IMG/VR virus record: IMGVR_UViG_3300040971_000021
Span: 1-58,640 of that record
DNA from: a virus
Taxonomy: Duplodnaviria; Caudoviricetes
DNA: 58,640 nt
Direction: 5' to 3' (one strand)
Under the pieces are notes generated by a model that did not search any database, was not told the DNA's origin, and was given only the letters and a program-made list of their open reading frames with translations. Positions 2,821-41,607 of this stretch are shown piece by piece; positions within the stretch are counted from its first letter, which is position 1; each line of letters starts with the position of its first letter. The position numbers were made by a program, and so were the translations under genes.

Positions 2821-2916
2821 TTCAAACTCCTTTGAAATTTACTCATAAGTAAATTCAGGGCAGGCGGTGAGTAGCCGCTTTTCGGGCTCGATTCCCTATC
2901 CCTAAAATCTTTATTT

Positions 2917-9039: not shown

Positions 9040-9438
9040 TTATGTTAATTGTTTATGGTACGCCTCGAAAATGCGCTGTGTCAGCATCTGCACAGAATAC
9101 GCCTCAAACTCTGATGATGGATCATGTTCCCCTATGCTCGTCTTTATTTCTTGCCAAACATGAACAGCTTCATGCGCTATCAAACCTACTATCTGTCCCT
9201 TGGTATAATCTTTTTTATGCTTCTCATCCATGCAAATAATAGCAGCAATTTTCCTTCCATTCATTTCAATAAAATGTGTTGTTGCTCCAGTTCCACTTGC
9301 ATTAAATTCTGGCCTATCTTTTTTCTTTATTCCGTTGGCCCTTAACTCTTTAAAAAATGATTCTTTGTTTTTACACACTGATAACGGTATTGGGCTTGTA
9401 ATCAATTCGCTGTTAATTTCTATTGCTTTGTTTCTCAA
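9040..9438 (-). CDS. zincin-like (HExxH) small phage protein
   Basis: LIAHEAVH...SEFEAY. Confidence 0.65.
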   Translation of the reverse strand: MRNKAIEINSELITSPIPLSVCKNKESFFKELRANGIKKKDRPEFNASGTGATTHFIEMNGRKIAAIICMDEKHKKDYTKGQIVGLIAHEAVHVWQEIKTSIGEHDPSSEFEAYSVQMLTQRIFEAYHKQLT

Positions 9439-12400
9439 TTTTCCATCCTATTCAAGAAATTCATCTGCACCGAGGTTATCCTGTTCTTTATTGTCTCAGT
9501 GCGCTCTTTATCTTTCCTTGCTTCTGCCAGCTTTAACGACTTGAGGAGATTGGTCAGTTGCTTCTCTGCCAGCTTGGATCTTCGGTATAATTTAAATTCA
9601 GGGCTTGCCGAAACCCTGGCCCTCTCGAAAGGCGTCTCTGCTCCATCGTACCTTTGTTTTGCAACATCCCATTCTTTTACAGCCTCATAATAGCGATTGC
9701 TTATTGCCCTCTCATTCCATGAGCCCGTAAACCTTCTGGCAAATGGCACGTTATTTACCTCTAATTCGCCAGTAGCTGCGCGAACCGGAATATGAAGGAC
9801 ATTGCTCACGAACTTGCCAGTTGAACCGGTGACGGTATCATATAGCATGTCAAGCGTTTCAGGAGACATATCCACAAGACCTCCCTTGAATCTGTCGCCT
9901 CCTGTCATTCTGTTTACCATAGAAGTGACAATTTTTGAGGTTGGTGAAACATTCTTCCAATATCTTTCACTGTCTGGTTTTTCCGGCCCGAATGGGTTTT
10001 GATTCGGCATAAGGTCATTGCCCATGAAATTCTTGTTCTCTGCTGCCATGACTATTGGGTCGGCTATCGTTGGTGATAATGTTTGCAGAATCGTACCGGA
10101 TGCCAGAGGATTGAAGGCATTGGCAAAGGTAGTCACAACCCGCATAGCACCGCCAGCCGTGTTGTACTTCCTGCCCGTCATTGCCATGTAGAGCATATTT
10201 GCCGCTTCCGCCCCGATGTTGTTGAATCCGTTGTACCCGTATGGCATTGGGATGCTGATATATTTTCCTTTTGTTCCTGGAATCATAAAGATCATATTCC
10301 TTTCACGGATGAAATCAGCTATCCCTAAAATGTAAGGCTCACCAGAATCATCATCACCGCCACTTGCCAAGGCCAGAAGTTGTAAGGCAAAGCCACCGGC
10401 AACGACACCACCGACAATCTTTCTAACTTCCCGACTCTTGCCGATAGCCTGAATCATGCGGAGATTTCCCTGTATTCCGGCATTGGCGAACATAAAAAGC
10501 GCATTAAGCGCAGGACCTTGTTTACCTTTCTGCGTGAAGTCAACAGTTAATTTAGAGGCCACACTTGCCGCTTCTGATTTTGATACACCAGATTCAACCA
10601 AGTTCTTGTAAGTAGCCAGCCTCACCCCATTTTCAACAGCGGTATTCGACCGTGATACAAGTTTTTTGAGCGCATCGAGTTTCTTGAGAGCTGTGTGCCC
10701 TTCGCCGTACAGTTTCATTGTGTACTCAAGCTCTTTGGCAAGGTCTTCTATTTTCTCATATCCCTGCATCCATCCAATCTTGCCGCCGTTTTTAGAGAAG
10801 TCACGATACCATTTACCCATGTCAGTGCTATCATTGCCTGACTCTGCCTTGAAAATTCCCTTTATTGCTGGAAATATGTCTTTTGCTATCTTGGTGCGAA
10901 GCCCTTTATTCTCTCTGATTTTCTCGTCTGATAAGTGGATAAAAGCAGTCTGGAAATCACGGACGAAGTTAGAGAGAACAAATTCAGGGGAAAGCATGGT
11001 GTTAATCATTGCCAGGTAACGATTCACCTGTGACAGCTTTGCCATGAGCGGGCCAAGTTGTGCATCTTGACCTTTGATGGAATCCAAGAAACGGGCTACA
11101 GTTCTTCCTTGCGGTGTCCGTTGGTCGGTGTCGAACACAATCAGCTTCTTTTCGCTGACCATCTTCTTTTCACCACGGACGGTTTTCTCTACCTGAACCT
11201 TTATAAAAACACCATTTGGCGGTTCCTGCATGGTAGGATACATGACAACATTGCCTTCCTTGTCATGGGTCGGTTGTTTGGCAACCTTCTCAATAGTCAT
11301 GCCGGAATCAGGATTATCCAAGACAAATTGGTAGAGGGCTTTTCCTGCTGCCGCCTTGTGCTTTCTGTTCACTGCCGTTTCATAGTTCTGCACAGAATGA
11401 GCGACGATATTAACGACTTCACGCATTGAACCCATTGCCACTTTCAATGGCTTTCCAGTTGGCCCTGTTATACGCCCTACTGTTGGCGTGGTGTCAAGGA
11501 ATCCTTCACGCTGGAGAGGGACGTAATGTTTGTAGCCGGTGACAATGCCGTTGTATTCATCATCAGTAAGTTCTCCTGAATCATGCAGGGCTTCGACTCC
11601 CATTCTATTGATAAGGTCGAGTTTCTTCTTGGCTGATTGCATTGACTTAAAGCGTGGGTCTTTCTGCCACTTGTCGATAATGGCTTGCCCCTCTTCATCA
11701 GTCATGCCGGAAAGTCTTGGTGATTCTTCCGACCACTTATCGGTAAGTTTTTGAGTGGCCTCTATCCTGTCCAGAGCGTTATCAATTTCACCCTGCTTGC
11801 GCTCCGGTGTCCCTTTGGCAATCTCTTCTTCGGTAAATTCCCTTGCGTCAAGTTCTTTCTGCCGTTCAGCTATCCTGGCCTCACGACTATCAATATCCGC
11901 AATCACCTCGTCGATGAGTTCCAGGTAACCCTGTTGCGTGTCCTTGCTGTCAAGGTCATCTTCCATCACTGTCTTGGAACGAAGGTCAGACATGGCCTGT
12001 TTCCACTTCTCGGCCTCTGTGTCAGTCATGTGTTTAAGAAATTCGTCAAGTTTGCGCTTGGCATTAACCTCACGCATCCGCTGATTTCTCTCAGAGGCAT
12101 GTAATCCGTGTCCGTATTCCTCAAGGTCACTGACGGTAAGCTTTGCCTGTGCAAGTTCTTTCAGCATAGGCTCGACTACCGTTTCCCTTGTGCGCTGTAC
12201 TTCGTCGGCTGTCTTCTTGCCCCGCAGTTCTTCAACCGTAACCATGTCGTTTTTGACGGTCTTCTTATCGGCTTTTGCGTATATCCGCTTGCGTGGGTCG
12301 TTGGTGTTCAGCCAGTTATAAACGAAGTTCTCAAACCGTTCTTTCCACCGCTGGGATGATGCTGTAATTCTATCAACAATGTCTCGGCGAATAGTTTCAA

Positions 12401-15400
12401 CCTTCTCTGATACGGCTGAAAGGCTTATATCGTCTTCGGTATTTTGTGCTATATTATCGTCGCTATTCCACGTTGAAGCAACTGAGTTGCCTTGGTTCAT
12501 GTGGTCAAAACCATTTTCCGCTGTTTCCGTCTGCGGGATTCTGTCGGGGGTGGCTGAGAGGTTGTGATCTTCCTCAAGGGATTGATTCATCTGATTAGCC
12601 ATCTTCTTTGCCTGAAATGCCAGCTCCGTGCCGGATTTGCTTGAAAGCTCAAGAAAATGCTTGAGGTCTCCCGACAATGACCCCATGTAATCTACGAATG
12701 AAGAGGCGTCTATATTTTCACCTTTCAGCACCTCTTTAATGTCCGCAAGGTATCGGTCTTCAAGCTCGGAGTGGGTCAGGTCCAATTTGTCGGCCTCACT
12801 GTCAGCCATATCGTCTTGGCTCCAATTTATCCATGTCTCAGCCAATGATGCGCCAGAGCCGGTACGGGAAAGTCCCGCTATCCTGTCGGTCATGCGCCGC
12901 CTGAATATGAATTGAGCCTTCCGTATTACCTCTTTTCTCTCGACCTGTTTCTGCTTCTCAAGGAATAGGTCAGATTTGTCTATCAATGAGCCTTTACTTT
13001 TTTCAGCTGAGAGATTGGCCGCACCATTATAATCCACACTCACCTCATGCTGCCCGATATGCACCACCGTCGAGATAACATCACTCAACATATTCCGGTC
13101 GGTAATACCAAGGGCCTTGCCAACGAGGGCAACAAGCCTATCCCACAGCGTCTTGATTGTGCTGTCTGTTGACGTGGCAGGGATGGATTTCAGTAACTCC
13201 TGAAATGACTTGGATGAAAACGCCTGTGCAAGAAACTCTTCCGGTGAAGATAGTGCGTAAGCGGTCGCCATTTCCTCGTCGGTGAATCCTTTGCCCTGCG
13301 CCTTGTCGAGAAACTTCTTCGACTGCCCCTCTGACTCCTTAGCAAGTGTCAATAATTTGGCATCCACCTTTCGGCCTACCTGCTTCATCATCTGCTTGAC
13401 TTGCAGCCTCAGGATCGGGCTGGCCTTCATCTCCTTGACTGTCACGGCATGGACTGCCTCATGGAGCATGGTGTTGTATGCCAGGGCGTCGGCGTCTTTC
13501 AGGGCAATAGTAATACCATTGCTTACATGGTACGATGAATGGGCCACCTTCGCAAACGACACCGGAGTGTTCAGCAACTTCTCGTCGCTGATCGTCTTTC
13601 TTAACAGCTTTGCAAGTGCGGATGTTGCCGCATTGCCGTTGCTGATTGCCGCCGTCAACAGCTGGTAGGCGTTGGTTATCCCGGCTACGTCTTCATGGGT
13701 CTTTTTGCTGATTGTGTCGGTTATGGTGGGGGAGTCAATTGAATAAAAAGACTTATTTGGATAAGCAATGGATGCTGATTTTTTTATATCTTCTGCTGTT
13801 TTACTTTCAAACGGAATACGCCATCCGATTCCACCAGCACCGCCAGTACTAACATTATTTCCACCCCAATTATCCCCGTCCATCCCATTATTTTTGACGT
13901 ACCAGATATCCTTGTCGCCGATAACAAACCATTCTCCGCCGCCGTAGATATTCTGCGTGTCGGCATATCGCTCTCCATCTGGGGTATTAGAACCTTCTGG
14001 GTGCTCCCCATCCTTCTTTATTTTATCCGCGATTACGCTTAATGCCGCCTTGGCTCTTTTAACTTCATCTCTGGCCTGTTCGGTATCCCGCAATGTTGCG
14101 GATTCCTCGTCAGTCGATTCTCTGGCTATGGCAGAGAAAACATGGCCCCGATCATCGCCAACGCCAAAAGACATACCATCATCACTGTAATACCTCTTTG
14201 ACGCTGATAGTATCGTAACGTATCGAGGTCCAGTATCACGAGGATTGCGGATTGTTTGACCTGCCCTCATTTCTCGATATCCGTAGCCCTCTCCGCCGCT
14301 AATACGGAATTGTTCGCCAGGTAGAACGCCAGCACCGGACGGTCCTTCTGCCCCATACTGGCGCAAGGACTCAGGGATGTCTCCCGTCACGTACCACTTC
14401 TTTCGGTCTCCATCAAATTTCGCACCGGCTCGTTTCGCTTTGATGCGGTCGTCGTATGGAACGCTTAAATAAGTCTTGTCCCGCTTTGCCTCTTCCGCTA
14501 CTTCCTCTTGTTTAGCTGCACTTTCCACCTCTTTTCTATTTTTGACGGCCTGAATAGCCGCGTCCATTCGTGATTTCAGCTCTGGATGTTTCTCTATCCC
14601 AAGTGTCTTTAGTTTATCAACCCCGTTTTGATATATATATTCAGGGGCCTTTTCCTCAACATATTCAAGCCATTTCTTTAATTCAGGCACAGATGAAAGA
14701 TCTCTTGATTTAGCCGTTTGCTCTCCAGTAAGAGGATAAATCGTTGTCGTTGATCCGTACTTGTTTGACTGAATATCAACATTCGCGGGGGTGCTGTGTA
14801 TCTCCCCTACCGCCCAACCATCGCTTGTTTTGTTGATTTCAACCTTTACCGGGTAACTCTTTCCCTCCCTTGTCGCCTCAAACCATTTACGTCCTTTCTT
14901 GGTGATGGTAAGAGTTTCTTGTGATAATCTTCCTGGCGGTAAAGGCTCAATCTTCTCCGCCACCTTCTCAGGTATTTCCTTTTCGGAAATAGCTTCAGTT
15001 GTCAAGGATTCCTCTACAACTGCCTTCAGCTTTATTGAGTGAGTGACGTTGTTTCTGTCAACAAGATTGATAGAATAAGATTGAAAAGCCATACCCTCCA
15101 GCGATTTATCGCCCACATATTTCTTCCCTTCACCCTTTTTCACATAGGCGATTGTAGCATGAGGCTGATAGTCAGTGAAGGTTTCGCCGGGAACATCTAC
15201 AAGATCACCTACTTTCTTATTGGCAGAACGAAGCGATTTGCTTTTTATCTCGACCTTGACCACATCATATTTGTCATTCTCAAAGATAGAAACTTCACCA
15301 AATTTCGCGTCTATCGGGGGAAGAGAAGAAAGGTCTTTCAGCAACGCCGGATCGTCAATCGCAAGGCCGTATCTTACAGTTATATGTGGCTCTGTTTCTC

Positions 15401-18400
15401 TTCCGTAAGAATCATCTTTTGGGTCGATGTAAAGCTCTTTGTCGGGTATTGATTTTCCAAACTCAATCAACTTTGTTGCGGCTGGCCCTGTTACATTTAT
15501 CTGAGTGTTGCTGAAATCGTGAACCTGCTTTTCCTTTGCATCACCATTAGTTAAGGGAACGGACGTTTCGTTTACCTGAATGCCTAACTGTCCGGCAGAT
15601 TCGGATGGTTTAGACGTTGTTTTAGACATTGCATCCATCTTCTCCGCTGCGGCCCGCATGTGATCGGCGGCGGTCATCTCGGATATGGGCTTTTGCTCTG
15701 ATTCTGTGGCAAGTTTTAATGGTGTTTTGGTAGCTTGCTGTTTTTTCGACCCCGAAAATCTCTGGTTCGCTTCATACATCAATGCAACGAATCCGCGCTC
15801 TGTCCCTTGAAGATCATCCACATTGCTTGGCATATCCAGAATATCGGCCACATCAAGCCATGACTCGGCTATTGTCTTCTCTCCAGTAGTCGAGTTGTAG
15901 GATGTAACGCTTCCCGGCTCCATCCCGGTTGATGCTTTGAGTTGGCCGATGAATAATTGTTGGACGCCTTCGGGAAGGTTGAAGTATGTTTTTTCCCAAA
16001 ACTCTTTTGTGGCCGCTTGCGGAGAGATCCCTTGCTCGTCCATGTCATCAAGCGCACCCTGTCCCTGAGATTCGAAGGCAAGTCTTTTGGCTATTCGGTC
16101 GATGAATGAACCTAATTTTTTGCCCGTATCGTCAATTTTTGGAGTAGCAGATTTGTCACTCGAAGCCGGGGCCACGGTATCCGCTGTTGATTGTTGCGTA
16201 AAAGACTCCGCGCCGGGAGAGGCCATCTTCCCGGCGTTTCCAAGTTGCGCGTCATCTTCCGAGATAGGCGTGGGGAGTGCTTTGTTAAGTTTCTCTTCTC
16301 TCTTCGCCTGCAACTTCTCCCTAAGTGTCATCTTCGGCACTTCCGGGGTATATTCCTCGTATTGCGCTGCCGCTTCCTGCTTTGCGGCCTTGTTCCTGGT
16401 AATCCTCTCCAATAAGGCTGAACGCTTGCCGGTCTTGGCTATGTCTTGAGCCTGAACCGTCTCGGATGTGTCGGCAAAGTCGTTCATCAACTCGTCGGTT
16501 ACTGCCTGTCTGTCTTCGGTCTGCTGGAAGTCCTTTGTCGGTGCGTAGATGGTTCCGGCTGATGACCTGGCAGGGTCGATCAAGCTGGCCTTGCGGCGGT
16601 CTTCAATCAACTTACCGTCTGTCTCCACGTCTTGTGAACTCTTTGCTTTATTTTCCTTCTTTAACTCCATCTCAAGTGCATTCTGATACTCATGCAATGA
16701 CGCATACTTCCCGCCGCTTACGGGGATGTCGCTTATGGAAGAGAATCTTCCTCCTCCTCCAAGCATAGCAGATAACGACACACTAAACGACGTAGCATAC
16801 GGAGACTTAGCGGCCTCTTCAGGTGAAGGCCACTTATCCATATCACTGGCTATGTCTTCATCTGATTTTCTGAATAATTCATGAACATTTTTATTATAAA
16901 GAGGGTCGCTATCTCGTTGCTTTTCCTTTGCGACCTGGATGTCATATCTCCCCATTTCCTCAAGAATGCTTGTTTGTGTCGCAGTGGGCAACGAGTTCCA
17001 TTGTTTTGTAGTGTACGAGCCTAGCGGGTGGTTTATGTTGCCATCAGGCTGGACTATGGGTACAGGTTGAGCAGTTCGTACTGACTCTGACGCCTGCGAG
17101 CTAACGTCTCCCTCTCTTCCCACTTGCATAATTCTACCCGCATTTGGCGTGACACTTCCCGCCATTCCTCTGGGGTCAACTTCTCCTCCTGGTATTTGGG
17201 ATGGAATATCTGTTGCAACATTTTCCACAGCCGACTTATTAATTTCACTCTGTCCTCCTTGTGCTTGATTGTTATTCTGCATCTCCTCAAAGGATTTCTT
17301 CCTGCCAGCGGCAAAGGCCATGTCCTCTACTGCACGGCTGGCCTCTTCGTCGTAGTTCTTCCACGGGTCTTGTCTGGTTGCAGTTTCAGTAATACTATTT
17401 GCCTTGGATAATGCGTTGCTGATTACTCCGGTTGGCTTTGATGTTGGCTTGAATGCCTGTTCGATGTCACGGACTGCCGGGTCTTGAGGCAGTGCTGATA
17501 TTTCAGGGTTGGCTTCCTGTTGATTTAGCCGGTTCATCGTCTGAGATCCAGATTCCATGCCGCCTCCTTGGAACGCACCTACTATAAGACCCTGACCTGC
17601 CGATTCTGCCGCACCTTCGTCCCACGGCTTGCCCATAGCAAGGTTTGTAAATACCTGTTCCTGATACGACTGAGGCATTTCCTCAAGCGCACCTTCTTTG
17701 AACATGGTTTTTGCAATCTCTTTGCCTGCTTGTAGAATGGTAGTTCTCTCTCCACTCCGGCCAGCAATGGCAAGCGCTGCCTCTGCATCATGAAATCCTG
17801 GAACCTTGGAAGACAGAACACCTATTGCAGCCGTGCCAAGTCCTGCACCGATAGCAGGAAGAACTGTTTTACCCCACCCTCTTCCTTCCTGCCTACCCTG
17901 TTCCTGTATCAAACCTGTGGTGGTTGCGCCCTCTGCTCCTGCTCCTGCCGCCGTGATGGCCGCCATTGTTGCAGGATTAGCAAAGAACTTGCTGGAGAAT
18001 GCCGCCGCCTCTGCTGTACCTTCGGCGATTCCAGCCTTGGCAAGCGCAGAACTAAGCATCTTGGTTGCGACTCCCCGTGCAACTCCTACCCCACCAATGG
18101 ACAATGGTGCCGATTCAACGATTGAACCGAAAGCAGTTGATGGATTTTGAGCAAGCGCCTTTACAGTTGGAATAAAGCCCTTGGCGTCAGCTACATTCTG
18201 ATTCGCCTCCTGCCGTTGAGTGCTGTAACCTGAATCAAGAATTTTCTTGGTAGCTGATGGGTCATAACCGAATTTAGCCAAGCCCTTACCTGCCATGTTA
18301 CCTGTTGCGATATTTGCCAGCCCTACAGCCGATTCACCTAGACCGACTACGCCCTTTGTGGCATCTATGGCCGTGTCTTTGAGAAAACCGCCCACTCCCC

Positions 18401-18503
18401 TGCTTTCATCCTGAGTAGAACCTTCGTCGAACTGGTCGAAGAAGTTCTTCTTTTTTGGTTCAGGGGTTGTTTGGTCGAATTGGTCGAAGAAATTTGCTGC
18501 CAT
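9435..18503 (-). CDS. giant polyvalent virion/ejection protein (Acb1-like 2H phosphoesterase, DUF5710-like, zincin-like, C-terminal LPD38-like)
   Basis: 3022 aa; FFDQFD N-terminal repeats; EPHITV and QPHATI motifs; YLSVPY..AK..GAKFD...K.WY; MLHEAVH; IPMPYGYN and ENKNFMG C-terminal motifs. Confidence 0.8.
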   Translation of the reverse strand: MAANFFDQFDQTTPEPKKKNFFDQFDEGSTQDESRGVGGFLKDTAIDATKGVVGLGESAVGLANIATGNMAGKGLAKFGYDPSATKKILDSGYSTQRQEANQNVADAKGFIPTVKALAQNPSTAFGSIVESAPLSIGGVGVARGVATKMLSSALAKAGIAEGTAEAAAFSSKFFANPATMAAITAAGAGAEGATTTGLIQEQGRQEGRGWGKTVLPAIGAGLGTAAIGVLSSKVPGFHDAEAALAIAGRSGERTTILQAGKEIAKTMFKEGALEEMPQSYQEQVFTNLAMGKPWDEGAAESAGQGLIVGAFQGGGMESGSQTMNRLNQQEANPEISALPQDPAVRDIEQAFKPTSKPTGVISNALSKANSITETATRQDPWKNYDEEASRAVEDMAFAAGRKKSFEEMQNNNQAQGGQSEINKSAVENVATDIPSQIPGGEVDPRGMAGSVTPNAGRIMQVGREGDVSSQASESVRTAQPVPIVQPDGNINHPLGSYTTKQWNSLPTATQTSILEEMGRYDIQVAKEKQRDSDPLYNKNVHELFRKSDEDIASDMDKWPSPEEAAKSPYATSFSVSLSAMLGGGGRFSSISDIPVSGGKYASLHEYQNALEMELKKENKAKSSQDVETDGKLIEDRRKASLIDPARSSAGTIYAPTKDFQQTEDRQAVTDELMNDFADTSETVQAQDIAKTGKRSALLERITRNKAAKQEAAAQYEEYTPEVPKMTLREKLQAKREEKLNKALPTPISEDDAQLGNAGKMASPGAESFTQQSTADTVAPASSDKSATPKIDDTGKKLGSFIDRIAKRLAFESQGQGALDDMDEQGISPQAATKEFWEKTYFNLPEGVQQLFIGQLKASTGMEPGSVTSYNSTTGEKTIAESWLDVADILDMPSNVDDLQGTERGFVALMYEANQRFSGSKKQQATKTPLKLATESEQKPISEMTAADHMRAAAEKMDAMSKTTSKPSESAGQLGIQVNETSVPLTNGDAKEKQVHDFSNTQINVTGPAATKLIEFGKSIPDKELYIDPKDDSYGRETEPHITVRYGLAIDDPALLKDLSSLPPIDAKFGEVSIFENDKYDVVKVEIKSKSLRSANKKVGDLVDVPGETFTDYQPHATIAYVKKGEGKKYVGDKSLEGMAFQSYSINLVDRNNVTHSIKLKAVVEESLTTEAISEKEIPEKVAEKIEPLPPGRLSQETLTITKKGRKWFEATREGKSYPVKVEINKTSDGWAVGEIHSTPANVDIQSNKYGSTTTIYPLTGEQTAKSRDLSSVPELKKWLEYVEEKAPEYIYQNGVDKLKTLGIEKHPELKSRMDAAIQAVKNRKEVESAAKQEEVAEEAKRDKTYLSVPYDDRIKAKRAGAKFDGDRKKWYVTGDIPESLRQYGAEGPSGAGVLPGEQFRISGGEGYGYREMRAGQTIRNPRDTGPRYVTILSASKRYYSDDGMSFGVGDDRGHVFSAIARESTDEESATLRDTEQARDEVKRAKAALSVIADKIKKDGEHPEGSNTPDGERYADTQNIYGGGEWFVIGDKDIWYVKNNGMDGDNWGGNNVSTGGAGGIGWRIPFESKTAEDIKKSASIAYPNKSFYSIDSPTITDTISKKTHEDVAGITNAYQLLTAAISNGNAATSALAKLLRKTISDEKLLNTPVSFAKVAHSSYHVSNGITIALKDADALAYNTMLHEAVHAVTVKEMKASPILRLQVKQMMKQVGRKVDAKLLTLAKESEGQSKKFLDKAQGKGFTDEEMATAYALSSPEEFLAQAFSSKSFQELLKSIPATSTDSTIKTLWDRLVALVGKALGITDRNMLSDVISTVVHIGQHEVSVDYNGAANLSAEKSKGSLIDKSDLFLEKQKQVERKEVIRKAQFIFRRRMTDRIAGLSRTGSGASLAETWINWSQDDMADSEADKLDLTHSELEDRYLADIKEVLKGENIDASSFVDYMGSLSGDLKHFLELSSKSGTELAFQAKKMANQMNQSLEEDHNLSATPDRIPQTETAENGFDHMNQGNSVASTWNSDDNIAQNTEDDISLSAVSEKVETIRRDIVDRITASSQRWKERFENFVYNWLNTNDPRKRIYAKADKKTVKNDMVTVEELRGKKTADEVQRTRETVVEPMLKELAQAKLTVSDLEEYGHGLHASERNQRMREVNAKRKLDEFLKHMTDTEAEKWKQAMSDLRSKTVMEDDLDSKDTQQGYLELIDEVIADIDSREARIAERQKELDAREFTEEEIAKGTPERKQGEIDNALDRIEATQKLTDKWSEESPRLSGMTDEEGQAIIDKWQKDPRFKSMQSAKKKLDLINRMGVEALHDSGELTDDEYNGIVTGYKHYVPLQREGFLDTTPTVGRITGPTGKPLKVAMGSMREVVNIVAHSVQNYETAVNRKHKAAAGKALYQFVLDNPDSGMTIEKVAKQPTHDKEGNVVMYPTMQEPPNGVFIKVQVEKTVRGEKKMVSEKKLIVFDTDQRTPQGRTVARFLDSIKGQDAQLGPLMAKLSQVNRYLAMINTMLSPEFVLSNFVRDFQTAFIHLSDEKIRENKGLRTKIAKDIFPAIKGIFKAESGNDSTDMGKWYRDFSKNGGKIGWMQGYEKIEDLAKELEYTMKLYGEGHTALKKLDALKKLVSRSNTAVENGVRLATYKNLVESGVSKSEAASVASKLTVDFTQKGKQGPALNALFMFANAGIQGNLRMIQAIGKSREVRKIVGGVVAGGFALQLLALASGGDDDSGEPYILGIADFIRERNMIFMIPGTKGKYISIPMPYGYNGFNNIGAEAANMLYMAMTGRKYNTAGGAMRVVTTFANAFNPLASGTILQTLSPTIADPIVMAAENKNFMGNDLMPNQNPFGPEKPDSERYWKNVSPTSKIVTSMVNRMTGGDRFKGGLVDMSPETLDMLYDTVTGSTGKFVSNVLHIPVRAATGELEVNNVPFARRFTGSWNERAISNRYYEAVKEWDVAKQRYDGAETPFERARVSASPEFKLYRRSKLAEKQLTNLLKSLKLAEARKDKERTETIKNRITSVQMNFLNRMEN

Positions 18504-33487: not shown

Positions 33488-35727
33488 TACAACTGCACCC
33501 ATGGGGCCTCAATGCCTTGGTTTAATCCTTCGTCTGCTTCCGGCATGGCTGCATCCATCGGCGGGATCTGTTTCTCTATGTCTGGCTCCTGCACTCGCGG
33601 CGGGAACATGGGACTGGTGTTCTGTTGGACTTCTGGGGCTACCTGTTCCGTTGGTGCATTTACCGCTACCGCAATCGGAGCAATAATGGGGGCAGCATCT
33701 TGATCTCTAAACCCTGCTGATTTTAGGACTTGGTCGGCTACAGGAACAACTGCACTCATTGCTACCGCCTGTCCTGCTCCCTGGATTGAGGTGTAAAACT
33801 CTTCCAGCCGCAGAGAGATTGTCTCTTCAACAAGTTTCTCAATCTCTGCGTCCGTCTTGCGCTCTTTTATGTCAAGCTCTCTGTTCTTCTGTTCAACGAG
33901 CCATTGCGTTTTAGCCTCTTCAATCGCCTGTTTGATTCGTTCCGTTACCTGCTCTTCGCTTATTTGTTTATTGTCAATAATGCCCTTGATGACGCCAATG
34001 ACTTCTTCCTTATCTGGAAGATCCATGAGGTTGACAAGGTATGGAGTCAATGCGGCCTTAAACTCATCTGGCAACGTCTGGATAATGTCGCTCAATTCCT
34101 GCATCTTCATCTGTCGGAAGCTTGGCGTACTTGGTATCTCAGCAAGCGTGACTTTCAGTTTTGCCTTTGAAGTCGCATTCAGTATTCTTTCATTACCTTC
34201 TTCGTCAATCACCCTTGCATTCAAAACAATGGGCTTGTCCGGACGAATCATATTCCCCTTAACGACTACTTGGCTTTCCTTGTCGCCAATATCTTTGAGG
34301 ATCATAGACATGAGCAGGTCGCCCACCTGTTGCCGTCCGTATGCAAAATTATCATTAACCGTTGCCAGTCCTTGAACTGATTGCTCTATTGCTTGGCTCA
34401 TTGCGCCAGCATTATCAGGGTTAGCCTGGCCAGCTATTGCGTCAGAGATGTGGGATATCCTCTTTGCTGTCTCTCTTAAATCAATCAGCCTTTCATATTG
34501 TTGTTTGTTAAGCTCTGGGTTGCGATTTATCTTTAAATATCCACCTTGGGCAATCAAGGATGCATCGGTGATGATATCGGCGTCCGGTCTTGCTATTTCA
34601 TTCCGGAATATCTCATCCGTCATCAGTACGAAGTCTTTGCTTCGTTCAGTCTGGACTGATCCAAGCAACCACATCATCTTTGAAATCCGGGCGTTTATTT
34701 CATCCTGCAAAGGTATTAGCCATCTAACAGTACCAAAAGGAACGCCAGTGCCATCTTCGCGCTTACCCCAGAAAGGAACATAATTAATGCGGTCAAACTC
34801 GCTTACCGCCTCACCCAGCTTATGCGGGCCCATAAAGAAAGACTTGGTGATCTGGTCAACAAGTGCATTCTCTATTCTCGTCCCAGCAGTAACCGCCATA
34901 ATGTGTAGAGGATCGGCTTTATCGAATCGAACAGCGTCACCATTTTCCAGCCGGAGGAATTTAACCTGTTCCCATCTCCGCCTTGACAACTCAAACAGAC
35001 AAACACGGTTATTCTCAGGGGTTCTCCATTCTATCTCATCAACAGTCCAGCCGCGCTCAATCTCTTGCGACTGCGCCATTTCTGTTGATCTGCCACCGTC
35101 TCTGACTAGAACTGAAAGGTCATCAATCCAGCCGCCACCAGAAGACAGGATAATGTCTCTGCTTTTGGGGAACATAGATGCGGCGATTTCAACATTCGTC
35201 CACGTCTTACGGAGAAACCATTCCGCCTTATCGAAATCAGGGGTTAAATCTGTCCAGTCCCAATAGCAAGAATTTCTATGCACAAAACTGCAACGATAAG
35301 GGAACTTCATCGGGTTTTTACTCCGACATACTTCGACAAATCCTATTCCCACCTTTGCTTGGCTTGCATATGCCTCAGTACAGGCTTTATCTGCCCCTGA
35401 TCGTCTTTCTGCTTGGTTCAGCTTGTAGTTTGTAGCTAGTGCAATATCATCCGCTTCTTTGTCATGGTCTCCATCTGGGAGGACTTTCCAGTCAGTGCGT
35501 GTCTTCGCTTCCATCCCGGTGATATCTTCCATTGCCGGACCGATAAAGTTCTCGTATATCGGGGCAATACCAATCGCCGCCATCTCTTTTAATGTTGCAG
35601 AGTCGCGCTGGTTACCTGAATCGTAATCCATTTCCTTATCGGCCTGTGCTCTCCACGACGGCTGATATTGGATATGGTCGATTACATTCGCCAGGTACAC
35701 ATGATCTGTGTCTAACTTAACTGTCAT
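33487..35727 (-). CDS. portal protein (P22-like)
   Basis: 746 aa after terminase; WR..A...DY..GNQ, YVPFWG and QDEINARISK motifs. Confidence 0.9.
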   Translation of the reverse strand: MTVKLDTDHVYLANVIDHIQYQPSWRAQADKEMDYDSGNQRDSATLKEMAAIGIAPIYENFIGPAMEDITGMEAKTRTDWKVLPDGDHDKEADDIALATNYKLNQAERRSGADKACTEAYASQAKVGIGFVEVCRSKNPMKFPYRCSFVHRNSCYWDWTDLTPDFDKAEWFLRKTWTNVEIAASMFPKSRDIILSSGGGWIDDLSVLVRDGGRSTEMAQSQEIERGWTVDEIEWRTPENNRVCLFELSRRRWEQVKFLRLENGDAVRFDKADPLHIMAVTAGTRIENALVDQITKSFFMGPHKLGEAVSEFDRINYVPFWGKREDGTGVPFGTVRWLIPLQDEINARISKMMWLLGSVQTERSKDFVLMTDEIFRNEIARPDADIITDASLIAQGGYLKINRNPELNKQQYERLIDLRETAKRISHISDAIAGQANPDNAGAMSQAIEQSVQGLATVNDNFAYGRQQVGDLLMSMILKDIGDKESQVVVKGNMIRPDKPIVLNARVIDEEGNERILNATSKAKLKVTLAEIPSTPSFRQMKMQELSDIIQTLPDEFKAALTPYLVNLMDLPDKEEVIGVIKGIIDNKQISEEQVTERIKQAIEEAKTQWLVEQKNRELDIKERKTDAEIEKLVEETISLRLEEFYTSIQGAGQAVAMSAVVPVADQVLKSAGFRDQDAAPIIAPIAVAVNAPTEQVAPEVQQNTSPMFPPRVQEPDIEKQIPPMDAAMPEADEGLNQGIEAPWVQL

Positions 35728-37163
35728 CTGGCTCTCCAGTTTATTGCAGGGCGGGCTTTTGATTGGATATCAGACGTTGCCTTATCATCAAATCTCATTC
35801 CCATCATCAATGCATCTGACAAGTTGGGGGATTTTATCTTTAATCGCTTCATATCGGGCTTCGACATTATCTGTATCATCCCATTTGCATTATGCTTTTT
35901 AGGTACTCTGCACACTTCTGATTTTAAAGCTACAAGACATTTTATATCAGATGATATGCTTATCGTTTTATCTGGGTTTATATATTCTCCCTTTACCACT
36001 GCACGATATGTATTAAAAAACCTATCCCTCATCGCCCAATAATATTGCGCTCGCTTGTTCTTAAATATCTCTTGGTTCGTCTTTCTGTTCTCTTGTGCAG
36101 TTTTCCCGGTATCCTCGTAGATTTCCTCTGGCCTATCCACACCCTCAGACCCCTTAAACATCGACCATTTTGTATGCTTACTGTTTAGAGAGTCTGACAC
36201 CTGCCTTTTTAGTGATACGCCAAGACCATCACAGTCCCATAAAAATAAATCAGCGTTTTCCGTTAGTGCTTTTTCTAGAGCCCAGTCCATTCCGTCTGCT
36301 GCGTCACCATTTGACATTAAATCAACATCAGTGACAACTGAACCATGCCTGACGGCCAACCCTTTATCATCTGTGCCTTCGTCTGATGGATCAAACGACA
36401 CGATCTTTGCGCCTTGGGGCTTGAACCCTAATTTTATATGAGCATCTACGGCGGCATCAAACCATTCTGCTGCAATAATTGATCCCTCAACTGTGTCGTT
36501 ATACGCACCAAGCCAGATATGATCGTATTCTGCCCTTGGAAGTGTATCAAAGTCATGGACACGCTCCTGTTCAAGGTTAGACGGAAACCATGGGTTGTCT
36601 GTGTAGTTTATTTTTATAATCAAGTGAAGATCATCTTCATAAAACCCATCTCGGTCCAACTGCTCACGATAAGGCTCAATGAATCTCTGGCTAATAGGGT
36701 CCGCACTAGACATTGTGTTTAGCGAGAACCAGCATTCAGAATCTTCTTCCCTTAGTGTTGGAGTTAGTAGCTTCAGAGATTCTTTGCTGAGGAACTGGGC
36801 CTCTTCTACCCAGAAATATTTAAACCCATACATAGACTTAACGCTTCCGGCAGAACGGGAAAGACCTTTAAACCTAAAGCCACCACCTGAAATATTATCA
36901 ATGTGCGTTTTTCCACACTCATAGCCGGGAGCTTTCATCCTTTCTATCTCGCCAACAAGCAACGCATGAACCGAATCCTCTATCGCATTTTGATATTCAC
37001 GGAAACAACCAACCTTCGCCCCCTCGACTTGTGATTTCATTATCAGCATGTCAGCAAATGATTGTGACTTACACGCTCCACGGCCACCGAATGCAACTTT
37101 AAACCGCTTCTTGGTTGTCAAGAATGGCAAAAGCTTTTCAGGGATGGTCATGTGTAGATTCAT
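35724..37163 (-). CDS. terL: terminase large subunit (PBSX family)
   Basis: GGRGACKS Walker A, FWVEEA Walker B, FDPSDEG nuclease motif, SPNLSDA. Confidence 0.95.
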   Translation of the reverse strand: MNLHMTIPEKLLPFLTTKKRFKVAFGGRGACKSQSFADMLIMKSQVEGAKVGCFREYQNAIEDSVHALLVGEIERMKAPGYECGKTHIDNISGGGFRFKGLSRSAGSVKSMYGFKYFWVEEAQFLSKESLKLLTPTLREEDSECWFSLNTMSSADPISQRFIEPYREQLDRDGFYEDDLHLIIKINYTDNPWFPSNLEQERVHDFDTLPRAEYDHIWLGAYNDTVEGSIIAAEWFDAAVDAHIKLGFKPQGAKIVSFDPSDEGTDDKGLAVRHGSVVTDVDLMSNGDAADGMDWALEKALTENADLFLWDCDGLGVSLKRQVSDSLNSKHTKWSMFKGSEGVDRPEEIYEDTGKTAQENRKTNQEIFKNKRAQYYWAMRDRFFNTYRAVVKGEYINPDKTISISSDIKCLVALKSEVCRVPKKHNANGMIQIMSKPDMKRLKIKSPNLSDALMMGMRFDDKATSDIQSKARPAINWRAR

Positions 37164-39231: not shown

Positions 39232-39268
39232 TTGACAATACTTTTGATTTGGCTTATATTAAAAGCAT
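39232..39268 (+). promoter_or_regulatory. strong early sigma70 promoter with overlapping inverted repeat (putative operator)
   Basis: TTGACA(39232)-17 bp-TATATT(39255), A-rich upstream element; ATACTTTTGAT/ATTAAAAGCAT 9/11 inverted repeat. Confidence 0.75.
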
Positions 39269-39312
39269 AGAGGATGGATTGAAGCAAATAAACAATTAAC
39301 GGAGGAAATAAA

Positions 39313-39594
39313 ATGAGAACATTATCAGAGATCAGAGGCGCCGTTGAGGAGTTAGGACAGGCAACACTGGCATTTTTGCCAGAGGATTGTTTGTATCAGG
39401 AGGAACAACGGCTTGAAAGAGTCGTCTCTGAGCTGAAACAGGCAGTGGGAGATCCCTGCCTCGTTTTTAACAACGCGGACCAACTCGCCGACCAAAAGGC
39501 GAAAACCCGGAGGCGGATAGAAGACCGCCTCCGTAGATGCGACGACGAAGTTTGGATCGTCGCAAAACTGCTAGGGATAGACATAGAGTCGTAA
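39313..39594 (+). CDS. early 93-aa protein, copy 1
   Basis: GGAGG RBS; near-identical to 40550-40831; stop lies in a 10-nt partial repeat GTCGTAATCC. Confidence 0.8.
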   Translation: MRTLSEIRGAVEELGQATLAFLPEDCLYQEEQRLERVVSELKQAVGDPCLVFNNADQLADQKAKTRRRIEDRLRRCDDEVWIVAKLLGIDIES

Positions 39595-39597
39595 TCC

Positions 39598-39781
39598 GTC
39601 GTAATCCCTTCTGGAGTCAGGTCAGGTCAGTCTCCAAATAGATGTCAGCCGAGAGATCTTCAAAGTCTTTTGCTGTCGTAATCCCTTCTGGAGTCAGGTC
39701 AGGTCAGTCTAGGTATAAGGGATATTGATTGGTCGCAGGTAGGTGCGTCGTAATCCCTTCTGGAGTCAGGTCAGGTCAGTC
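39598..39781 (-). CRISPR. mini CRISPR array: 3 identical 35-bp repeats, 2 spacers (42 and 37 bp), no cas genes
   Basis: GTCGTAATCCCTTCTGGAGTCAGGTCAGGTCAGTC at 39598, 39675 and 39747; the reverse complement ends AAGGGATTACGAC like type III repeats; strand inferred from that end. Confidence 0.85.
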
Positions 39782-39853
39782 GGGACACCGACCATTTCGC
39801 TGTCACTCGCGCCAGGAGTGACAGCAACAAGGCACAAACAAAGGAGCAACACC

Positions 39854-40162
39854 ATGGAAATTACAAAAGAGACCGGAAGTTACAATGAGCGCAGATACGG
39901 AAAACCTTGGATAGCGGTTATTGATTACACCAATAACCGCAAGGGGGATTTTAGATTCGGCGATTGGCAGGGACGGCCAGGGTCGGAAGGCGAATTATAT
40001 ATCACCTGTGAAATTGGTGATATTATTGCCACTGGTCAAAAGGATTTCCGCAAGCCTAGAAACTCCGCCCCCACTTATTATCAGGTTGATAGTAACGGCC
40101 AACTTGATGAAATTGGGGATAACCCTGTTGAGGCATACAAAAGATCACAAGGGGGTGATTAA
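39854..40162 (+). CDS. early hypothetical protein (102 aa)
   Basis: AAGGAG RBS; SYNERRYGKPWIA...GQKDFRK; followed by GC-rich GAAA hairpin. Confidence 0.8.
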   Translation: MEITKETGSYNERRYGKPWIAVIDYTNNRKGDFRFGDWQGRPGSEGELYITCEIGDIIATGQKDFRKPRNSAPTYYQVDSNGQLDEIGDNPVEAYKRSQGGD

Positions 40163-40234
40163 ATAATATAAACCACAGGGGGGGCTGGAAACAGCCCCTT
40201 AACTGGGATTGAGCAGTTAAATTCAACGGAGGAA

Positions 40235-40477
40235 ATGGAAATGAAATTTTTATTTACGGTAAACCAATATGACAAAGACGGTGATTGTATTGATACTTGC
40301 ATCTTTGGGCATTTTAATGACAGTACCATATTGCGCTTTGGAAAATTGACGGAGCGCATCCTTGCAACAGCCGGAGACAACGTACCATCAGAAATAGAAT
40401 ATCTGGATAGGAATGGGCAAGTAGTCGGGTTTTGGGCTTATGGATGTTTTCACCCAGACTATCCATACCAAGGCTAA
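40235..40477 (+). CDS. early small acidic protein (80 aa)
   Basis: GGAGG RBS. Confidence 0.7.
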   Translation: MEMKFLFTVNQYDKDGDCIDTCIFGHFNDSTILRFGKLTERILATAGDNVPSEIEYLDRNGQVVGFWAYGCFHPDYPYQG

Positions 40478-40549
40478 CCACCCCACAACCGGGCAGCGGC
40501 CCATAAGGGCAAATAAAACCAAGGCCGGAAACGGCAAAGGACGGATAAA

Positions 40550-40831
40550 ATGAGAACATTATCAGAGATCAGGAGCGCAGTTGAGGAGTTACGACAGGCA
40601 ACAGTGGCATTTTTGCCAGAGGATTGTTTGTTTGAGGAGGAACAACGGCTTGAAAGAGTCGTCTCTGAGCTGTATCAGGCAGTGGGAGATCCCTGCCTCG
40701 TTTTTAACAACGGGGACCAACTCGCCGACCAAAAGGCGAAAACCCGCAGACGGATAGAAGACCGCCTCCGTAGATGCGACGACGAAGTTTGGATCGTCGC
40801 AAAACTGCTAGGGATAGACATAGAGTCGTAA
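40550..40831 (+). CDS. early 93-aa protein, copy 2
   Basis: Paralogue of 39313-39594 with a few substitutions; stop TAA lies inside the solitary repeat. Confidence 0.8.
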   Translation: MRTLSEIRSAVEELRQATVAFLPEDCLFEEEQRLERVVSELYQAVGDPCLVFNNGDQLADQKAKTRRRIEDRLRRCDDEVWIVAKLLGIDIES

Positions 40832-40859
40832 TCCCTTCTGGAGTCAGGTCAGGTCAGTC
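40825..40859 (-). repeat. solitary CRISPR repeat
   Basis: Exact fourth copy of the 35-bp repeat, 1043 bp after the array. Confidence 0.9.
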
Positions 40860-40887
40860 GAATATACCAACAACCAACGAGGACACA

Positions 40888-41037
40888 ATGAAAAACCCAA
40901 AACTTAAAACGATCAACTACCTGATCCCTGTAGAATTATGGGCTGCGGTAAAAATTAAAGCCATTAACGACGGCCTGTCACTCAAAAATGCTGTTATTGT
41001 TGCCTTCACCGATTACATAAAAAAGGTGAAGAAGTGA
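40888..41037 (+). CDS. ribbon-helix-helix DNA-binding protein (Arc-like)
   Basis: KTINYLIPVELWAAVKIKAINDGLSLKNAVIVAFTDYI pattern; GAGG RBS. Confidence 0.7.
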   Translation: MKNPKLKTINYLIPVELWAAVKIKAINDGLSLKNAVIVAFTDYIKKVKK

Positions 41038-41376: not shown

Positions 41377-41607
41377 ATGAACCTAAAAGACGATAAAAAC
41401 TTTTTCAGCGGACGGAGAAGATCAGTGAATACAATATCAATACCAGAGTTCAAGGGTGCACGTAAAAGAAGCTTTCTGGAAGATGTAGAGGGGTTTATAT
41501 TCCACGATGGAAATTCAAAAAACCACAAGGCAACAACACGTGATTACGTTATTCTCTACGCCTGCGTGTTGGTTGGTATATGGCTATCGGCGTGGTTTAC
41601 GGTATGA
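41377..41607 (+). CDS. hypothetical protein with C-terminal TM
   Basis: ORF coupled to next gene. Confidence 0.5.
   Translation: MNLKDDKNFFSGRRRSVNTISIPEFKGARKRSFLEDVEGFIFHDGNSKNHKATTRDYVILYACVLVGIWLSAWFTV

What the first reader, a model, noticed from the sequence alone, without database searches (positions are those of the whole stretch)
39308..40859. Duplicated gene-plus-repeat unit: the gene's stop codon lies in repeat sequence, giving a potential self-targeting, anti-tag-protected guide
Seen: an approx. 315-bp unit (93-aa gene + repeat) occurs twice (39308-39632, 40545-40859) and brackets the spacers and two genes. Both genes end GAG-TCG-TAA using repeat-derived bases. Copy 2 ends inside the solitary repeat, while copy 1 ends in an extra 10-nt GTCGTAATCC placed just before repeat 1. 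A minus-strand RNA cut at the solitary repeat would give handle + guide complementary to the 3' end of both mRNA copies, each followed by GUCGUAAU, the perfect anti-tag. Established: anti-tag pairing lets type III complexes cleave RNA without activating Cas10. Inference: the phage may use host Csm/Cmr to time its own early gene, or to soak up complexes without triggering cOA signalling. Alternatively, the repeats are recombination points and the 1043-bp gene-bearing interval behaves like a giant spacer.
Basis: partly seen in the sequence, partly recalled or inferred. Interest (0 to 1): 0.85.

Follow-up and report, generated by a model that had tools for sequence, protein, structure and literature searches.

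The report
Phage-borne host CRISPR repeats, duplicated gene
A phage of a sulfur-cycling bacterium carries four exact copies of its host's type III CRISPR repeat at the start of its early genes, two of them joined to the ends of a duplicated small gene; this is a new variant of a known phage trick, and its working strand is still unknown.

Summary
Four exact 35-nt repeats (39598, 39675, 39747, 40825) and a 290-nt duplication (96% identical) carrying a 93-aa gene are real and not an assembly artefact.

The repeat is 35/35 identical to the array repeat of a Desulfocapsa MAG with a complete type III-A (Csm) locus. Host arrays read the repeat on the window's minus strand, so all four phage copies are antisense to the strong early operon.

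The locus looks like an anti-defence operon: promoter, orphan genes, weak Arc-like repressor. It combines a mini-array with a solitary repeat, both known virus-borne kinds.

Contig depth indicates that spacer 2 also sits in the resident host array. Together with phage RecT/RecE/RusA, this points to capture by repeat-to-repeat recombination.

The self-targeting geometry holds for a guide from the solitary repeat (8/8 anti-tag on both gene copies). That is automatic for antisense pairs. A guide from repeat 1 would see copy 2 as non-self (2/8).

A minus-strand extended -10 abuts the solitary repeat, and one related phage lineage keeps a partial repeat at the same place. No RNA data exist.

This scan has noted backward-facing type III solitary repeats on other phage DNA before.

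The parts
39232..39260 (+). Early promoter-like site (TTGACA, 17 nt, TATATT; 11 of 12) that heads the + strand operon
39313..39594 (+). Gene A copy 1 (93 aa, orphan). It is predicted all-helical at low confidence and has a conserved C-terminal motif KTRRRIED..LR..AK.LG
39588..39597 (+). Extra 10-nt partial repeat (GTCGTAATCC) that supplies the Ser codon and stop of copy 1
39598..39781 (-). Mini-CRISPR array: repeats R1 (39598-39632), R2 (39675-39709) and R3 (39747-39781), with spacers sp1 (39633-39674, 42 nt) and sp2 (39710-39746, 37 nt). The crRNA sense is the minus strand
39799..39825 (.). 10-bp hairpin with a 7-nt loop between R3 and gene B, with no U-run on either strand
   Evidence: (I7)
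39854..40162 (+). Gene B (102 aa, orphan; low-confidence beta-rich model)
40235..40477 (+). Gene C (80 aa; only a weak phrog_2993 match, E 0.0016)
40550..40831 (+). Gene A copy 2 (93 aa; 7 aa differences from copy 1). Its last 7 nt lie in repeat R4
40825..40859 (-). Solitary repeat unit R4, 1043 bp from R3. The crRNA sense is the minus strand
40861..40869 (-). Extended -10-like box TGGTATATT, 1 nt upstream of R4 in crRNA sense. The best -35 matches only 3 of 6
40888..41037 (+). 49-aa Arc-like repressor candidate (phrog_6506, E 6.3e-5; no Pfam hit), in the place an aca gene would take

Best explanation
This is the head of the phage's early operon. It is built like an anti-defence (acr-aca-type) locus and carries CRISPR repeat units taken from the type III-A array of its Desulfocapsa host: a 3-repeat, 2-spacer mini-array behind gene A copy 1 and a solitary repeat behind copy 2.

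Shown:
- The repeats are identical to the host's.
- The host system is type III-A, with Cas6.
- All four repeats are antisense to the early genes.
- The duplication is real.

Inferred, origin: the mini-array is a piece of host array picked up by repeat-to-repeat homologous recombination, for which the phage brings RecT, a RecE-like exonuclease and RusA. The gene-plus-repeat duplication is a by-product of the same repeat-mediated recombination, because its right border lies inside the repeat.

Inferred, function: the solitary repeat is transcribed from its own minus-strand extended -10 and cut by host Cas6. It is then loaded into Csm as a decoy guide, as a Racr would be. Its only target is the phage's own gene A mRNA, which cannot switch on Cas10 because the complementary strand necessarily carries the anti-tag. 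It does not support his 'timing of an early gene' option.
For: Identity and host:
- 7 genome loci hold the repeat core, 5 of them as arrays. The G001 array is 35/35 identical.
- The host locus has Cas10/Csm1 (597 bits) and Csm2-5, Cas1, Cas2 and Card1, and Cas6.
- Orientation follows from cas1-cas2, leader, array.
- The phage record has no Cas1 or Cas6.

Locus type: an 11/12 promoter, orphan genes and an Arc-like gene after R4.

Host capture:
- The contig spanning R2, sp2 and R3 has depth 192.7 in X1, against 32-40 for phage contigs. In X2 it has 337.1, against 4-7.
- The X2/X1 ratio is 1.75, matching the repeat bin ratio of 1.78. A 4041-nt contig that abuts the repeat has depth 120-141 in X3/X4 (all).
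- The phage encodes RecT, a RecE-like exonuclease and RusA.
- Precedent: PhiAP1.1 carries off spacer-repeat units (10.1101/2020.10.09.333658, abstract and section 10).

RNA-level function:
- The extended -10 lies 1 nt from R4. The motif density is 0.375 per kb per strand.
- The only other 2 IMG/VR records with this repeat, which appear to be one lineage (same flanking sequence around the repeat; TerL about 60% identical to the window's), keep a 24-nt partial repeat (22/24). It sits about 4.2 kb upstream of TerL in the same orientation, in an operon whose first gene has the gene A C-terminal motif at E 3e-7.
- SRUs next to acr genes and just downstream of promoters are described for Racrs (PMC10651486, passages).
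- A fully paired anti-tag represses Cas10 while RNA cleavage goes on (PMC7214462, passages).
- The R4 guide meets an 8/8 anti-tag on both copies.
Against: - No RNA data are available.
- The minus-strand box has a poor -35 (3/6) and was not reported by the two-hexamer scan.
- The relative L042 has no crRNA-sense promoter next to its partial repeat. A sense-strand promoter starts 5 nt beyond it.
- If minus-strand transcription ran through the mini-array, the R1-derived guide would be an activating guide against copy 2 plus R4 mRNA, with only 2/8 anti-tag.
- Sharing of sp2 with the host rests on contig depths only. sp2 was not found in the 190 host spacers I extracted, in G001/G002 or in 187 family genomes.
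- No integrase was found, so a PhiAP1.1-type integration cycle is not supported.
- No joint or deletion form was seen in the contigs.
- The Arc-like call is weak, and no known Acr family was matched.
Confidence: 0.42

Rival explanations
1. The active species is the + strand RNA. The strongly transcribed early mRNA carries four antisense repeats (anti-repeat and anti-tag). These would pair with host pre-crRNA repeats, blocking Cas6 processing or inviting double-strand RNases. They would also mark the adjoining mRNA segments, including antisense copies of host spacers, as 'self' for Csm.
For: - The 11/12 promoter lies upstream, with no convincing + strand terminator before 41037. This RNA is therefore the one most certain to exist.
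- 4 of 4 repeats here, and the partial repeat in L042/L044, are antisense to their operons.
- sp2 is probably a host spacer, so host sp2 complexes would meet a target with a perfect anti-tag.
- Earlier notes of this scan report backward-facing type III solitary repeats in at least 5 other genomes (unchecked AI notes, used as a lead only).
Against: - In L042 the partial repeat lies between a terminator-like hairpin and the next sense promoter, so it may be poorly transcribed in that sense.
- An anti-tag protects only the one register next to it.
- sp1 and sp2 have no other match in the phage, so there is nothing obvious to shield.
- No such mechanism was found in print in my searches.
Confidence: 0.2
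2. The repeats are a neutral scar. They are leftovers of accidental recombination between the phage and the host array, and between phage copies, and have no function of their own. The gene A paralogues are the only selected parts.
For: - Host-level depth of sp2.
- Phage recombination genes.
- The duplication border lies inside the repeat.
- No target was found for either spacer.
- 0 of 9 distant gene A homologue loci abut a repeat.
Against: - All four repeats are still 35/35 exact, whereas the flanking duplicated gene has diverged by 4%.
- A partial repeat is kept at the same place and orientation in a phage whose TerL is only about 60% identical. The chance expectation for 22/24 in 1.1 Mb is about 2e-5 by my arithmetic.
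- The locus sits in an operon of anti-defence type.
Confidence: 0.2
3. One reading: the phage uses host Csm, guided by a repeat-4-derived crRNA, to cleave and so time the mRNA of its own early gene A without setting off cOA signalling.
For: - Guide and anti-tag geometry.
- The identical 84-nt tails of both copies, p about 0.015 if mismatches were spread evenly.
- The minus-strand box at R4.
- RNA cleavage goes on with a matched anti-tag (PMC7214462).
Against: - The identical tail is also the conserved protein domain.
- The anti-tag is automatic for antisense pairs.
- Plain antisense RNA would do the same job without Csm.
- The R1 guide would be activating against copy 2.
- There is no RNA evidence and no parallel in the relative, where the repeat does not abut gene A.
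Confidence: 0.08
4. Inter-viral conflict: the mini-array is processed by the host machinery to target competing phages, as shown for archaeal virus mini-arrays.
For: - Host-identical repeats, two spacers and no cas genes.
- This is the usual reading of viral mini-arrays (PMC11656645, passages; PMC6858448, listing and start of abstract only).
Against: - No protospacer was found in IMG/VR by exact 26-28-mers, in 104 fetched viral and metagenome loci, or in 50,697 phage records, where only chance-level partial hits appeared.
- There is no host-like leader and no predicted promoter upstream of R3 in crRNA sense.
- sp2 seems to be an ordinary host spacer.
Confidence: 0.08

Closest known systems
Viral solitary repeat units and RNA anti-CRISPRs (Racr; Camara-Wilpert et al. 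2023, PMC10651486, passages read)
   Same: A lone, full-length copy of the host's CRISPR repeat in a phage without cas genes. It lies in an operon of small early genes and has a promoter-like box directly upstream in crRNA sense.
   Different: The repeat is type III-A; the passages I read describe tests on I-F, I-C, I-E and V-A only. It is antisense to the operon rather than co-transcribed with an acr, overlaps the stop codon of a gene on the other strand, and sits alongside a mini-array. Its activity is untested.
Virus-borne mini-CRISPR arrays (Medvedeva et al. 2019, PMC6858448, listing only; review PMC11656645, passages)
   Same: Host-identical repeats, one or two spacers and no cas genes.
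   Different: No related-virus target was found for either spacer. At least one spacer seems to be shared with the resident host array. The array is antisense to the surrounding operon and has no leader.
PhiAP1.1 of Streptococcus pyogenes (Varble et al., 10.1101/2020.10.09.333658, abstract and section 10 read)
   Same: A phage with repeat-like DNA that recombines with the host array and carries off spacer-repeat units next to that site. It has an early anti-CRISPR gene.
   Different: PhiAP1.1 acts on a type II-A array, integrates by means of an integrase, and is temperate. No tyrosine or serine recombinase was found in this 94%-complete record, which has RecT/RecE/RusA instead.
Type III self/non-self discrimination by crRNA tag and target anti-tag (for example LdCsm, PMC7214462, passages)
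   Same: The + strand mRNAs carry GUCGUAAU, the exact complement of the 8-nt tag, directly 3' of the segments that repeat-derived guides would pair with.
   Different: In hosts this protects the array from its own antisense transcripts. Here the geometry lies in a phage operon, and whether any guide is made is unknown.

Membership tests
Virus-borne CRISPR mini-array | Repeats identical or nearly identical to those of the host's CRISPR array | tested here: met
   35/35 identity to the 37-repeat array of G001 (L009). One mismatch to four other arrays.
Virus-borne CRISPR mini-array | One or two spacers and no cas genes in the virus | tested here: met
   Two spacers. No Cas1 or Cas6 match in the record. 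Other cas families were not scanned.
Virus-borne CRISPR mini-array | Spacers match related viruses | tested here: not met
   No match. The searches were exact or limited, so absence is not proven.
Virus-borne CRISPR mini-array | Transcribed in crRNA sense and processed by host Cas6 | not testable with these tools
   No RNA run was listed. No promoter is predicted upstream of R3 in crRNA sense.
Solitary repeat unit / Racr | Full-length repeat matching the host's subtype, with no other repeat within 100 bp | tested here: met
   R4 is exact and lies 1043 bp from R3. The host is type III-A.
Solitary repeat unit / Racr | Promoter upstream in the sense of the crRNA | tested here: inconclusive
   An extended -10, TGGTATATT, lies 1 nt upstream, but the -35 matches only 3/6. 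It was not reported by the two-hexamer scan.
Solitary repeat unit / Racr | Lies next to acr genes | tested here: inconclusive
   The neighbours are orphans without Pfam or PHROG function. An Arc-like gene follows (E 6.3e-5). No dedicated Acr library was available.
Solitary repeat unit / Racr | The RNA binds Cas proteins and lowers interference | not testable with these tools
   This needs experiments.
PhiAP1.1-type integration into CRISPR repeats | Phage integrase acting on a repeat-like attP | tested here: not met
   No PF00589 or PF00239 match in the 94%-complete record.
PhiAP1.1-type integration into CRISPR repeats | Spacer-repeat units of the host array carried in the phage genome | tested here: inconclusive
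   The R2-sp2-R3 contig has host-level depth, not phage-level depth, in 2 runs from 2 samples. No host contig with sp2 was retrieved.
acr-aca operon | Strong early promoter, small accessory genes and a DNA-binding repressor gene at the end | tested here: inconclusive
   Promoter 11/12. Four small orphan ORFs with ribosome-binding sites. The repressor call is weak. No known Acr was matched.

The most novel reading that the evidence does not exclude
Type III solitary repeats in phages work in a way that type I Racrs do not. Placed antisense inside a transcribed operon, the repeat gives a Cas6-cut decoy guide whose only possible target is the phage's own convergent mRNA. That target is permanently 'self'-marked by the built-in anti-tag. 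Csm complexes are therefore filled with, or occupied by, an inert guide-target pair and never make cOA. The backward orientation seen here, in the related lineage and in other phages noted by this scan would then be a rule for type III, not an accident.
Probability: 0.2. Interest if true: 0.75.

Novelty: new variant of a known kind. Interest (0 to 1): 0.5.

Why it matters
RNA anti-CRISPRs have been shown for type I and type V systems. For type III, which senses RNA and signals through cyclic oligoadenylates, no RNA-based inhibitor turned up in my searches.

This locus offers a compact, testable case. It has one solitary repeat with its own candidate promoter and one captured array piece. It also has two paralogous targets that predict opposite outcomes: the R4 guide should be silent on both copies, and the R1 guide should be activating on copy 2.

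It also gives natural, metagenomic evidence that a phage without an integrase can carry off part of its host's CRISPR array.

Tried and rejected
- Spacer targets. None was found in the window or fetched loci, in IMG/VR by exact 28- and 26-mers, in G001/G002 with up to 3 mismatches, in 187 genomes of the host's family for sp2 only, in 104 viral and metagenome loci, or in 50,697 phage records. In the phage records sp1 had no match, and sp2 had only 22-25-nt chance-level hits in enterobacterial phages.
- Host spacers against the phage. 0 of 190 extracted spacers gave more than a 15-nt match.
- Host repeat variant matching the L042 partial repeat. 0 of 187 family genomes at up to 1 mismatch, so I make no claim of co-variation.
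- Gene A. No Pfam or PHROG family. Only itself among 5.8 billion clusters. No usable Atlas hit. The PDB profile search gave only E above 0.1 hits to a short basic helix of importin-alpha, which I reject as chance.
- Structure models. Gene A scored pLDDT 61 and gene B 51. Both are too poor for fold searches, which I did not run.
- Gene B. No Atlas hit.
- Similar DNA in the phage records. One 68-nt match in an unrelated small virus, rejected.
- RNA runs. No RNA holder was listed.
- Contigs. No joint or deletion form between repeats was seen in the contigs of 4 runs. Contigs drop rare variants, so this is not evidence of absence.
- The G>C at 40713 in X1/X2. I read this as a popped assembly bubble between the two paralogues (inference).
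- Not run: complex prediction, build_rna_model and fold search.
- Supplements. Those of the Racr paper, which list all SRUs including any type III ones and their strands, were closed and may bear on the novelty claim.
Full report
WHAT IS THERE

The window is a whole viral record: 58,640 bp, rated 94% complete. Late genes lie on the minus strand up to about 39,000, with the terminase large subunit at 35724-37163. Early and replication genes lie on the plus strand from 39,313 onward. They include RusA, RecT, a RecE-like exonuclease, an O-like initiator and a primase-helicase.

The finding sits at the very start of the plus-strand operon. Its parts, in order, are:
- an 11-of-12 promoter-like site at 39232-39260;
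- gene A copy 1 (39313-39594);
- a 10-nt partial repeat (39588-39597);
- three exact 35-nt repeats separated by spacers of 42 and 37 nt (39598-39781);
- a hairpin (39799-39825);
- gene B (39854-40162) and gene C (40235-40477);
- gene A copy 2 (40550-40831), overlapping by 7 nt a fourth exact repeat (40825-40859);
- a 49-aa gene with a weak Arc-like repressor match (phrog_6506, E 6.3e-5).

The four repeats are exact, and none was found in 100 shuffles. The two gene units are 290 nt long and 96% identical. They differ at 12 positions: 8 nonsynonymous bases giving 7 amino-acid changes, and 4 synonymous. All 12 lie before 39514, so the last 84 nt are identical.

IS THE DUPLICATION REAL?

Three lines of evidence say it is.
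- The copies are diverged.
- Both protein variants are recorded on 3 contigs each, the longest 62,404 bp.
- In Logan contigs of 4 runs, one contig joins the upstream region to copy 1 and another joins repeat 3, B and C to copy 2, at closely similar depths in every run. These runs come from at most 2 samples of 1 study, which may be the source sample.

The contigs break exactly where 31-mers become shared between the copies. In each run only one of the two allelic paths through the 3' half survives. I read this as bubble popping. It also explains the single 'other letter' at 40713 (inference).

WHOSE REPEAT IS IT?

The 25-nt core of the repeat occurs in 7 loci of the genome collection. Five of these are arrays of 5 to 108 repeats, several in Desulfocapsa or Desulfobulbaceae MAGs. 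The array of one Desulfocapsa MAG (G001, 37 repeats) is identical over all 35 nt. The other arrays differ at one base.

Next to that array lie the following genes:
- cas1, a Card1-type CARF nuclease and Csx20;
- csm5, csm4, csm3 and csm2;
- cas10/csm1 (597 bits);
- a CARF-adenosine deaminase and an NE0113-family protein;
- cas6.

This is a complete type III-A system.

In G002 the order is cas1, cas2, a 300-nt AT-rich leader and then the array, with the repeat ending in GGGATTACGAC on the cas strand. In G001 the array lies beside cas1 and reads ...ATTACGAC on the strand that carries cas1 and the csm genes. That 8-nt tags are the type III rule is recalled knowledge.

The phage itself has no Cas1 or Cas6. 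All four phage repeats are thus antisense to the operon in which they lie.

WHAT THE SPACERS SAY

Neither spacer matches anything else I could search: the phage itself, the 190 host spacers I extracted, two host genomes, 187 genomes of the host's family (sp2 only), IMG/VR by exact inner 26-28-mers, 104 fetched viral and metagenome loci, or 50,697 phage records. None of the 190 host spacers targets the phage.

The laid contigs give an unexpected hint.
- The short contig that runs from repeat 2 through spacer 2 into repeat 3 has depth 192.7 in run X1, where phage contigs have 32-40. In run X2 it has 337.1, where phage contigs have 4-7.
- Its X2/X1 ratio is 1.75, which equals the ratio of the repeat-rich bin (1.78).
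- A 4041-nt contig abuts the repeat. By eye, its last bases match the leader end of G002 at 16 of 17 positions. It has depth 120-141 in the sister runs.

Spacer 2 with its flanking repeats therefore tracks the host array, not the phage. The simplest reading is that the resident host array holds the same spacer, and that the phage's mini-array is a captured piece of it. This is an inference from contig depths. I could not retrieve a host contig with spacer 2.

HOW THE STRUCTURE PROBABLY AROSE

The phage brings its own RecT, RecE-like exonuclease and RusA. A 35-nt repeat is ample homology for such systems (general knowledge).

A documented precedent exists. PhiAP1.1 integrates into type II-A repeats, and on aberrant excision it carries one, two or more spacer-repeat units next to its attachment site, which it can then transduce (10.1101/2020.10.09.333658, abstract and section 10). 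No tyrosine or serine recombinase is found here. I therefore propose homologous rather than site-specific recombination.

The right border of the duplicated unit lies inside the repeat, and the left border 5 nt before the start codon. The extra 10 nt before repeat 1 can be read as a small tandem slip, or as the remnant of a further repeat. I cannot tell which.

No deletion form between repeats was seen, but contigs would not show a rare one.

THE SELF-TARGETING IDEA, TESTED ON THE SEQUENCE

I derived the guide that Cas6 cutting would leave behind each repeat on the minus strand and looked for its targets.
- The repeat 4 guide pairs with the last 37 nt of both gene copies, each followed by GTCGTAAT (8/8 anti-tag).
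- Any RNA and its cis-antisense partner pair through the tag as well, so for copy 2 the anti-tag is automatic. For copy 1 it is there because the duplication took 10 nt of repeat along.
- The repeat 1 guide begins with those 10 nt. It pairs 37/37 with copy 2 plus the start of repeat 4, where the flank is CTTCTGGA (2/8).

By the established rule, a full tag match represses Cas10, mismatches activate it, and RNA cleavage goes on either way (PMC7214462, passages). That pair would therefore be an activating, self-harming one. So the locus is not a consistently 'protected' design. If the minus strand is read, it should not be read through repeat 1.

WHICH STRAND WORKS?

For the crRNA sense:
- An extended -10 box (TGGTATATT, 40869-40861) lies 1 nt upstream of the solitary repeat. 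The motif occurs 0.375 times per kb and strand, so one within 10 nt is expected in about 0.4% of cases.
- Racr-type solitary repeats are described as lying just downstream of promoters and next to acr genes (PMC10651486).

Against the crRNA sense:
- The -35 is poor.
- No promoter is seen upstream of repeat 3.

For the plus sense:
- The strong early promoter makes antisense-repeat RNA almost certain.
- This scan's earlier notes list backward-facing type III solitary repeats in at least 5 other phage genomes. These are unchecked notes and serve only as a lead.

RELATIVES

Of 80 loci with a related terminase, only two hold the repeat, and they appear to be one lineage: L042 and L044, from two metagenomes, with TerL about 60% identical to the window's and the same flanking sequence around the repeat. 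These are also the only IMG/VR records, besides the window's own, that match a degenerate 24-nt pattern.

They carry a 24-nt partial copy (22/24) that keeps the tag end. It lies about 4.2 kb upstream of the terminase, in the same orientation. Its operon has an 11/12 promoter, and its first gene ends in the gene A C-terminal motif (E 3e-7). There the repeat does not abut that gene. It lies about 520 nt downstream, between a terminator-like hairpin and the next sense promoter, and no crRNA-sense promoter is predicted.

Conservation of a non-coding 24-mer across this distance argues for selection or re-acquisition. It does not settle the strand.

GENE A

Gene A has no family, and its model is helical but poor. 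Nine distant homologue loci share only the last 30 or so residues. In none of them does the gene abut a CRISPR repeat. Seven of them lie in metagenome contigs with kilobase-scale repeated units and short 9-nt tandem repeats, and the gene is itself duplicated in two.

VERDICT

The thing is a virus-borne mini-array plus a solitary repeat unit matched to a host type III-A system. Both are known kinds. The arrangement is new:
- they lie together in an anti-defence-type early operon;
- they face backwards;
- they are fused to the ends of a duplicated orphan gene;
- at least one spacer is apparently taken from the living host array.

My best explanation is capture and duplication by repeat-mediated recombination, with the solitary repeat acting as a Racr-like decoy that is inert because of the anti-tag. 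I give it 0.42. The plus-strand 'anti-repeat' reading and the neutral-scar reading get 0.2 each.

Noticed in passing
window 14880-15680 (-), inside the 3022-aa ORF 9435-18503: A 2H phosphoesterase domain (PF13563, 33.3 bits against a cut-off of 27; Acb1 family only 18.6 bits, below cut-off) lies inside the giant virion-type protein. It could degrade cyclic oligonucleotide signals, which would suit a phage facing a type III-A host. Its activity is unknown.
   Followed up: partly
window 2840-2906 (-): An Rfam int-alpA RNA match just above the gathering score (36.8 against 35.8), yet no tyrosine or serine recombinase is found in the record.
   Followed up: partly
L015-L021 (metagenome contigs), e.g. 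L020:1-5227, L021:1-4809, L019:1-4125: The 58-aa relatives of gene A's C-terminal domain sit in contigs built of 1-2-kb repeated units. Each is followed by runs of 9-nt tandem repeats (ACCAGATAA-like). The small gene is duplicated in L019 (84% identical) and in L015. Neighbouring ORFs look like toxin-antitoxin pairs, by eye only. This may be a cassette array.
   Followed up: partly
L012 (G001:C123:3000-22238): The host type III-A locus carries three different cOA-responsive accessory genes side by side: Card1-type nuclease, CARF-adenosine deaminase and Csx20. It also has an NE0113-family protein.
   Followed up: no
L010:3720-3749: A lone copy of the repeat, cut short after 29 nt, lies in a 58-kb bacterial MAG contig with no array around it. 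Its neighbours were not annotated.
   Followed up: no
window 40862-40876 and 41567-41581: A 15-nt inverted repeat (87% complementary) links the box next to the solitary repeat with the sequence just before the HNH-endonuclease-like gene at 41580 (I12). It may be a shared operator or promoter element.
   Followed up: no
L042:4060-4250 (-): In the related phage, the gene A-like first early gene is followed by about 12-nt tandem repeats (GGGGTGCCGATCTCC-like) before the partial CRISPR repeat. In every lineage seen, gene A relatives are followed by some kind of short tandem repeat.
   Followed up: no
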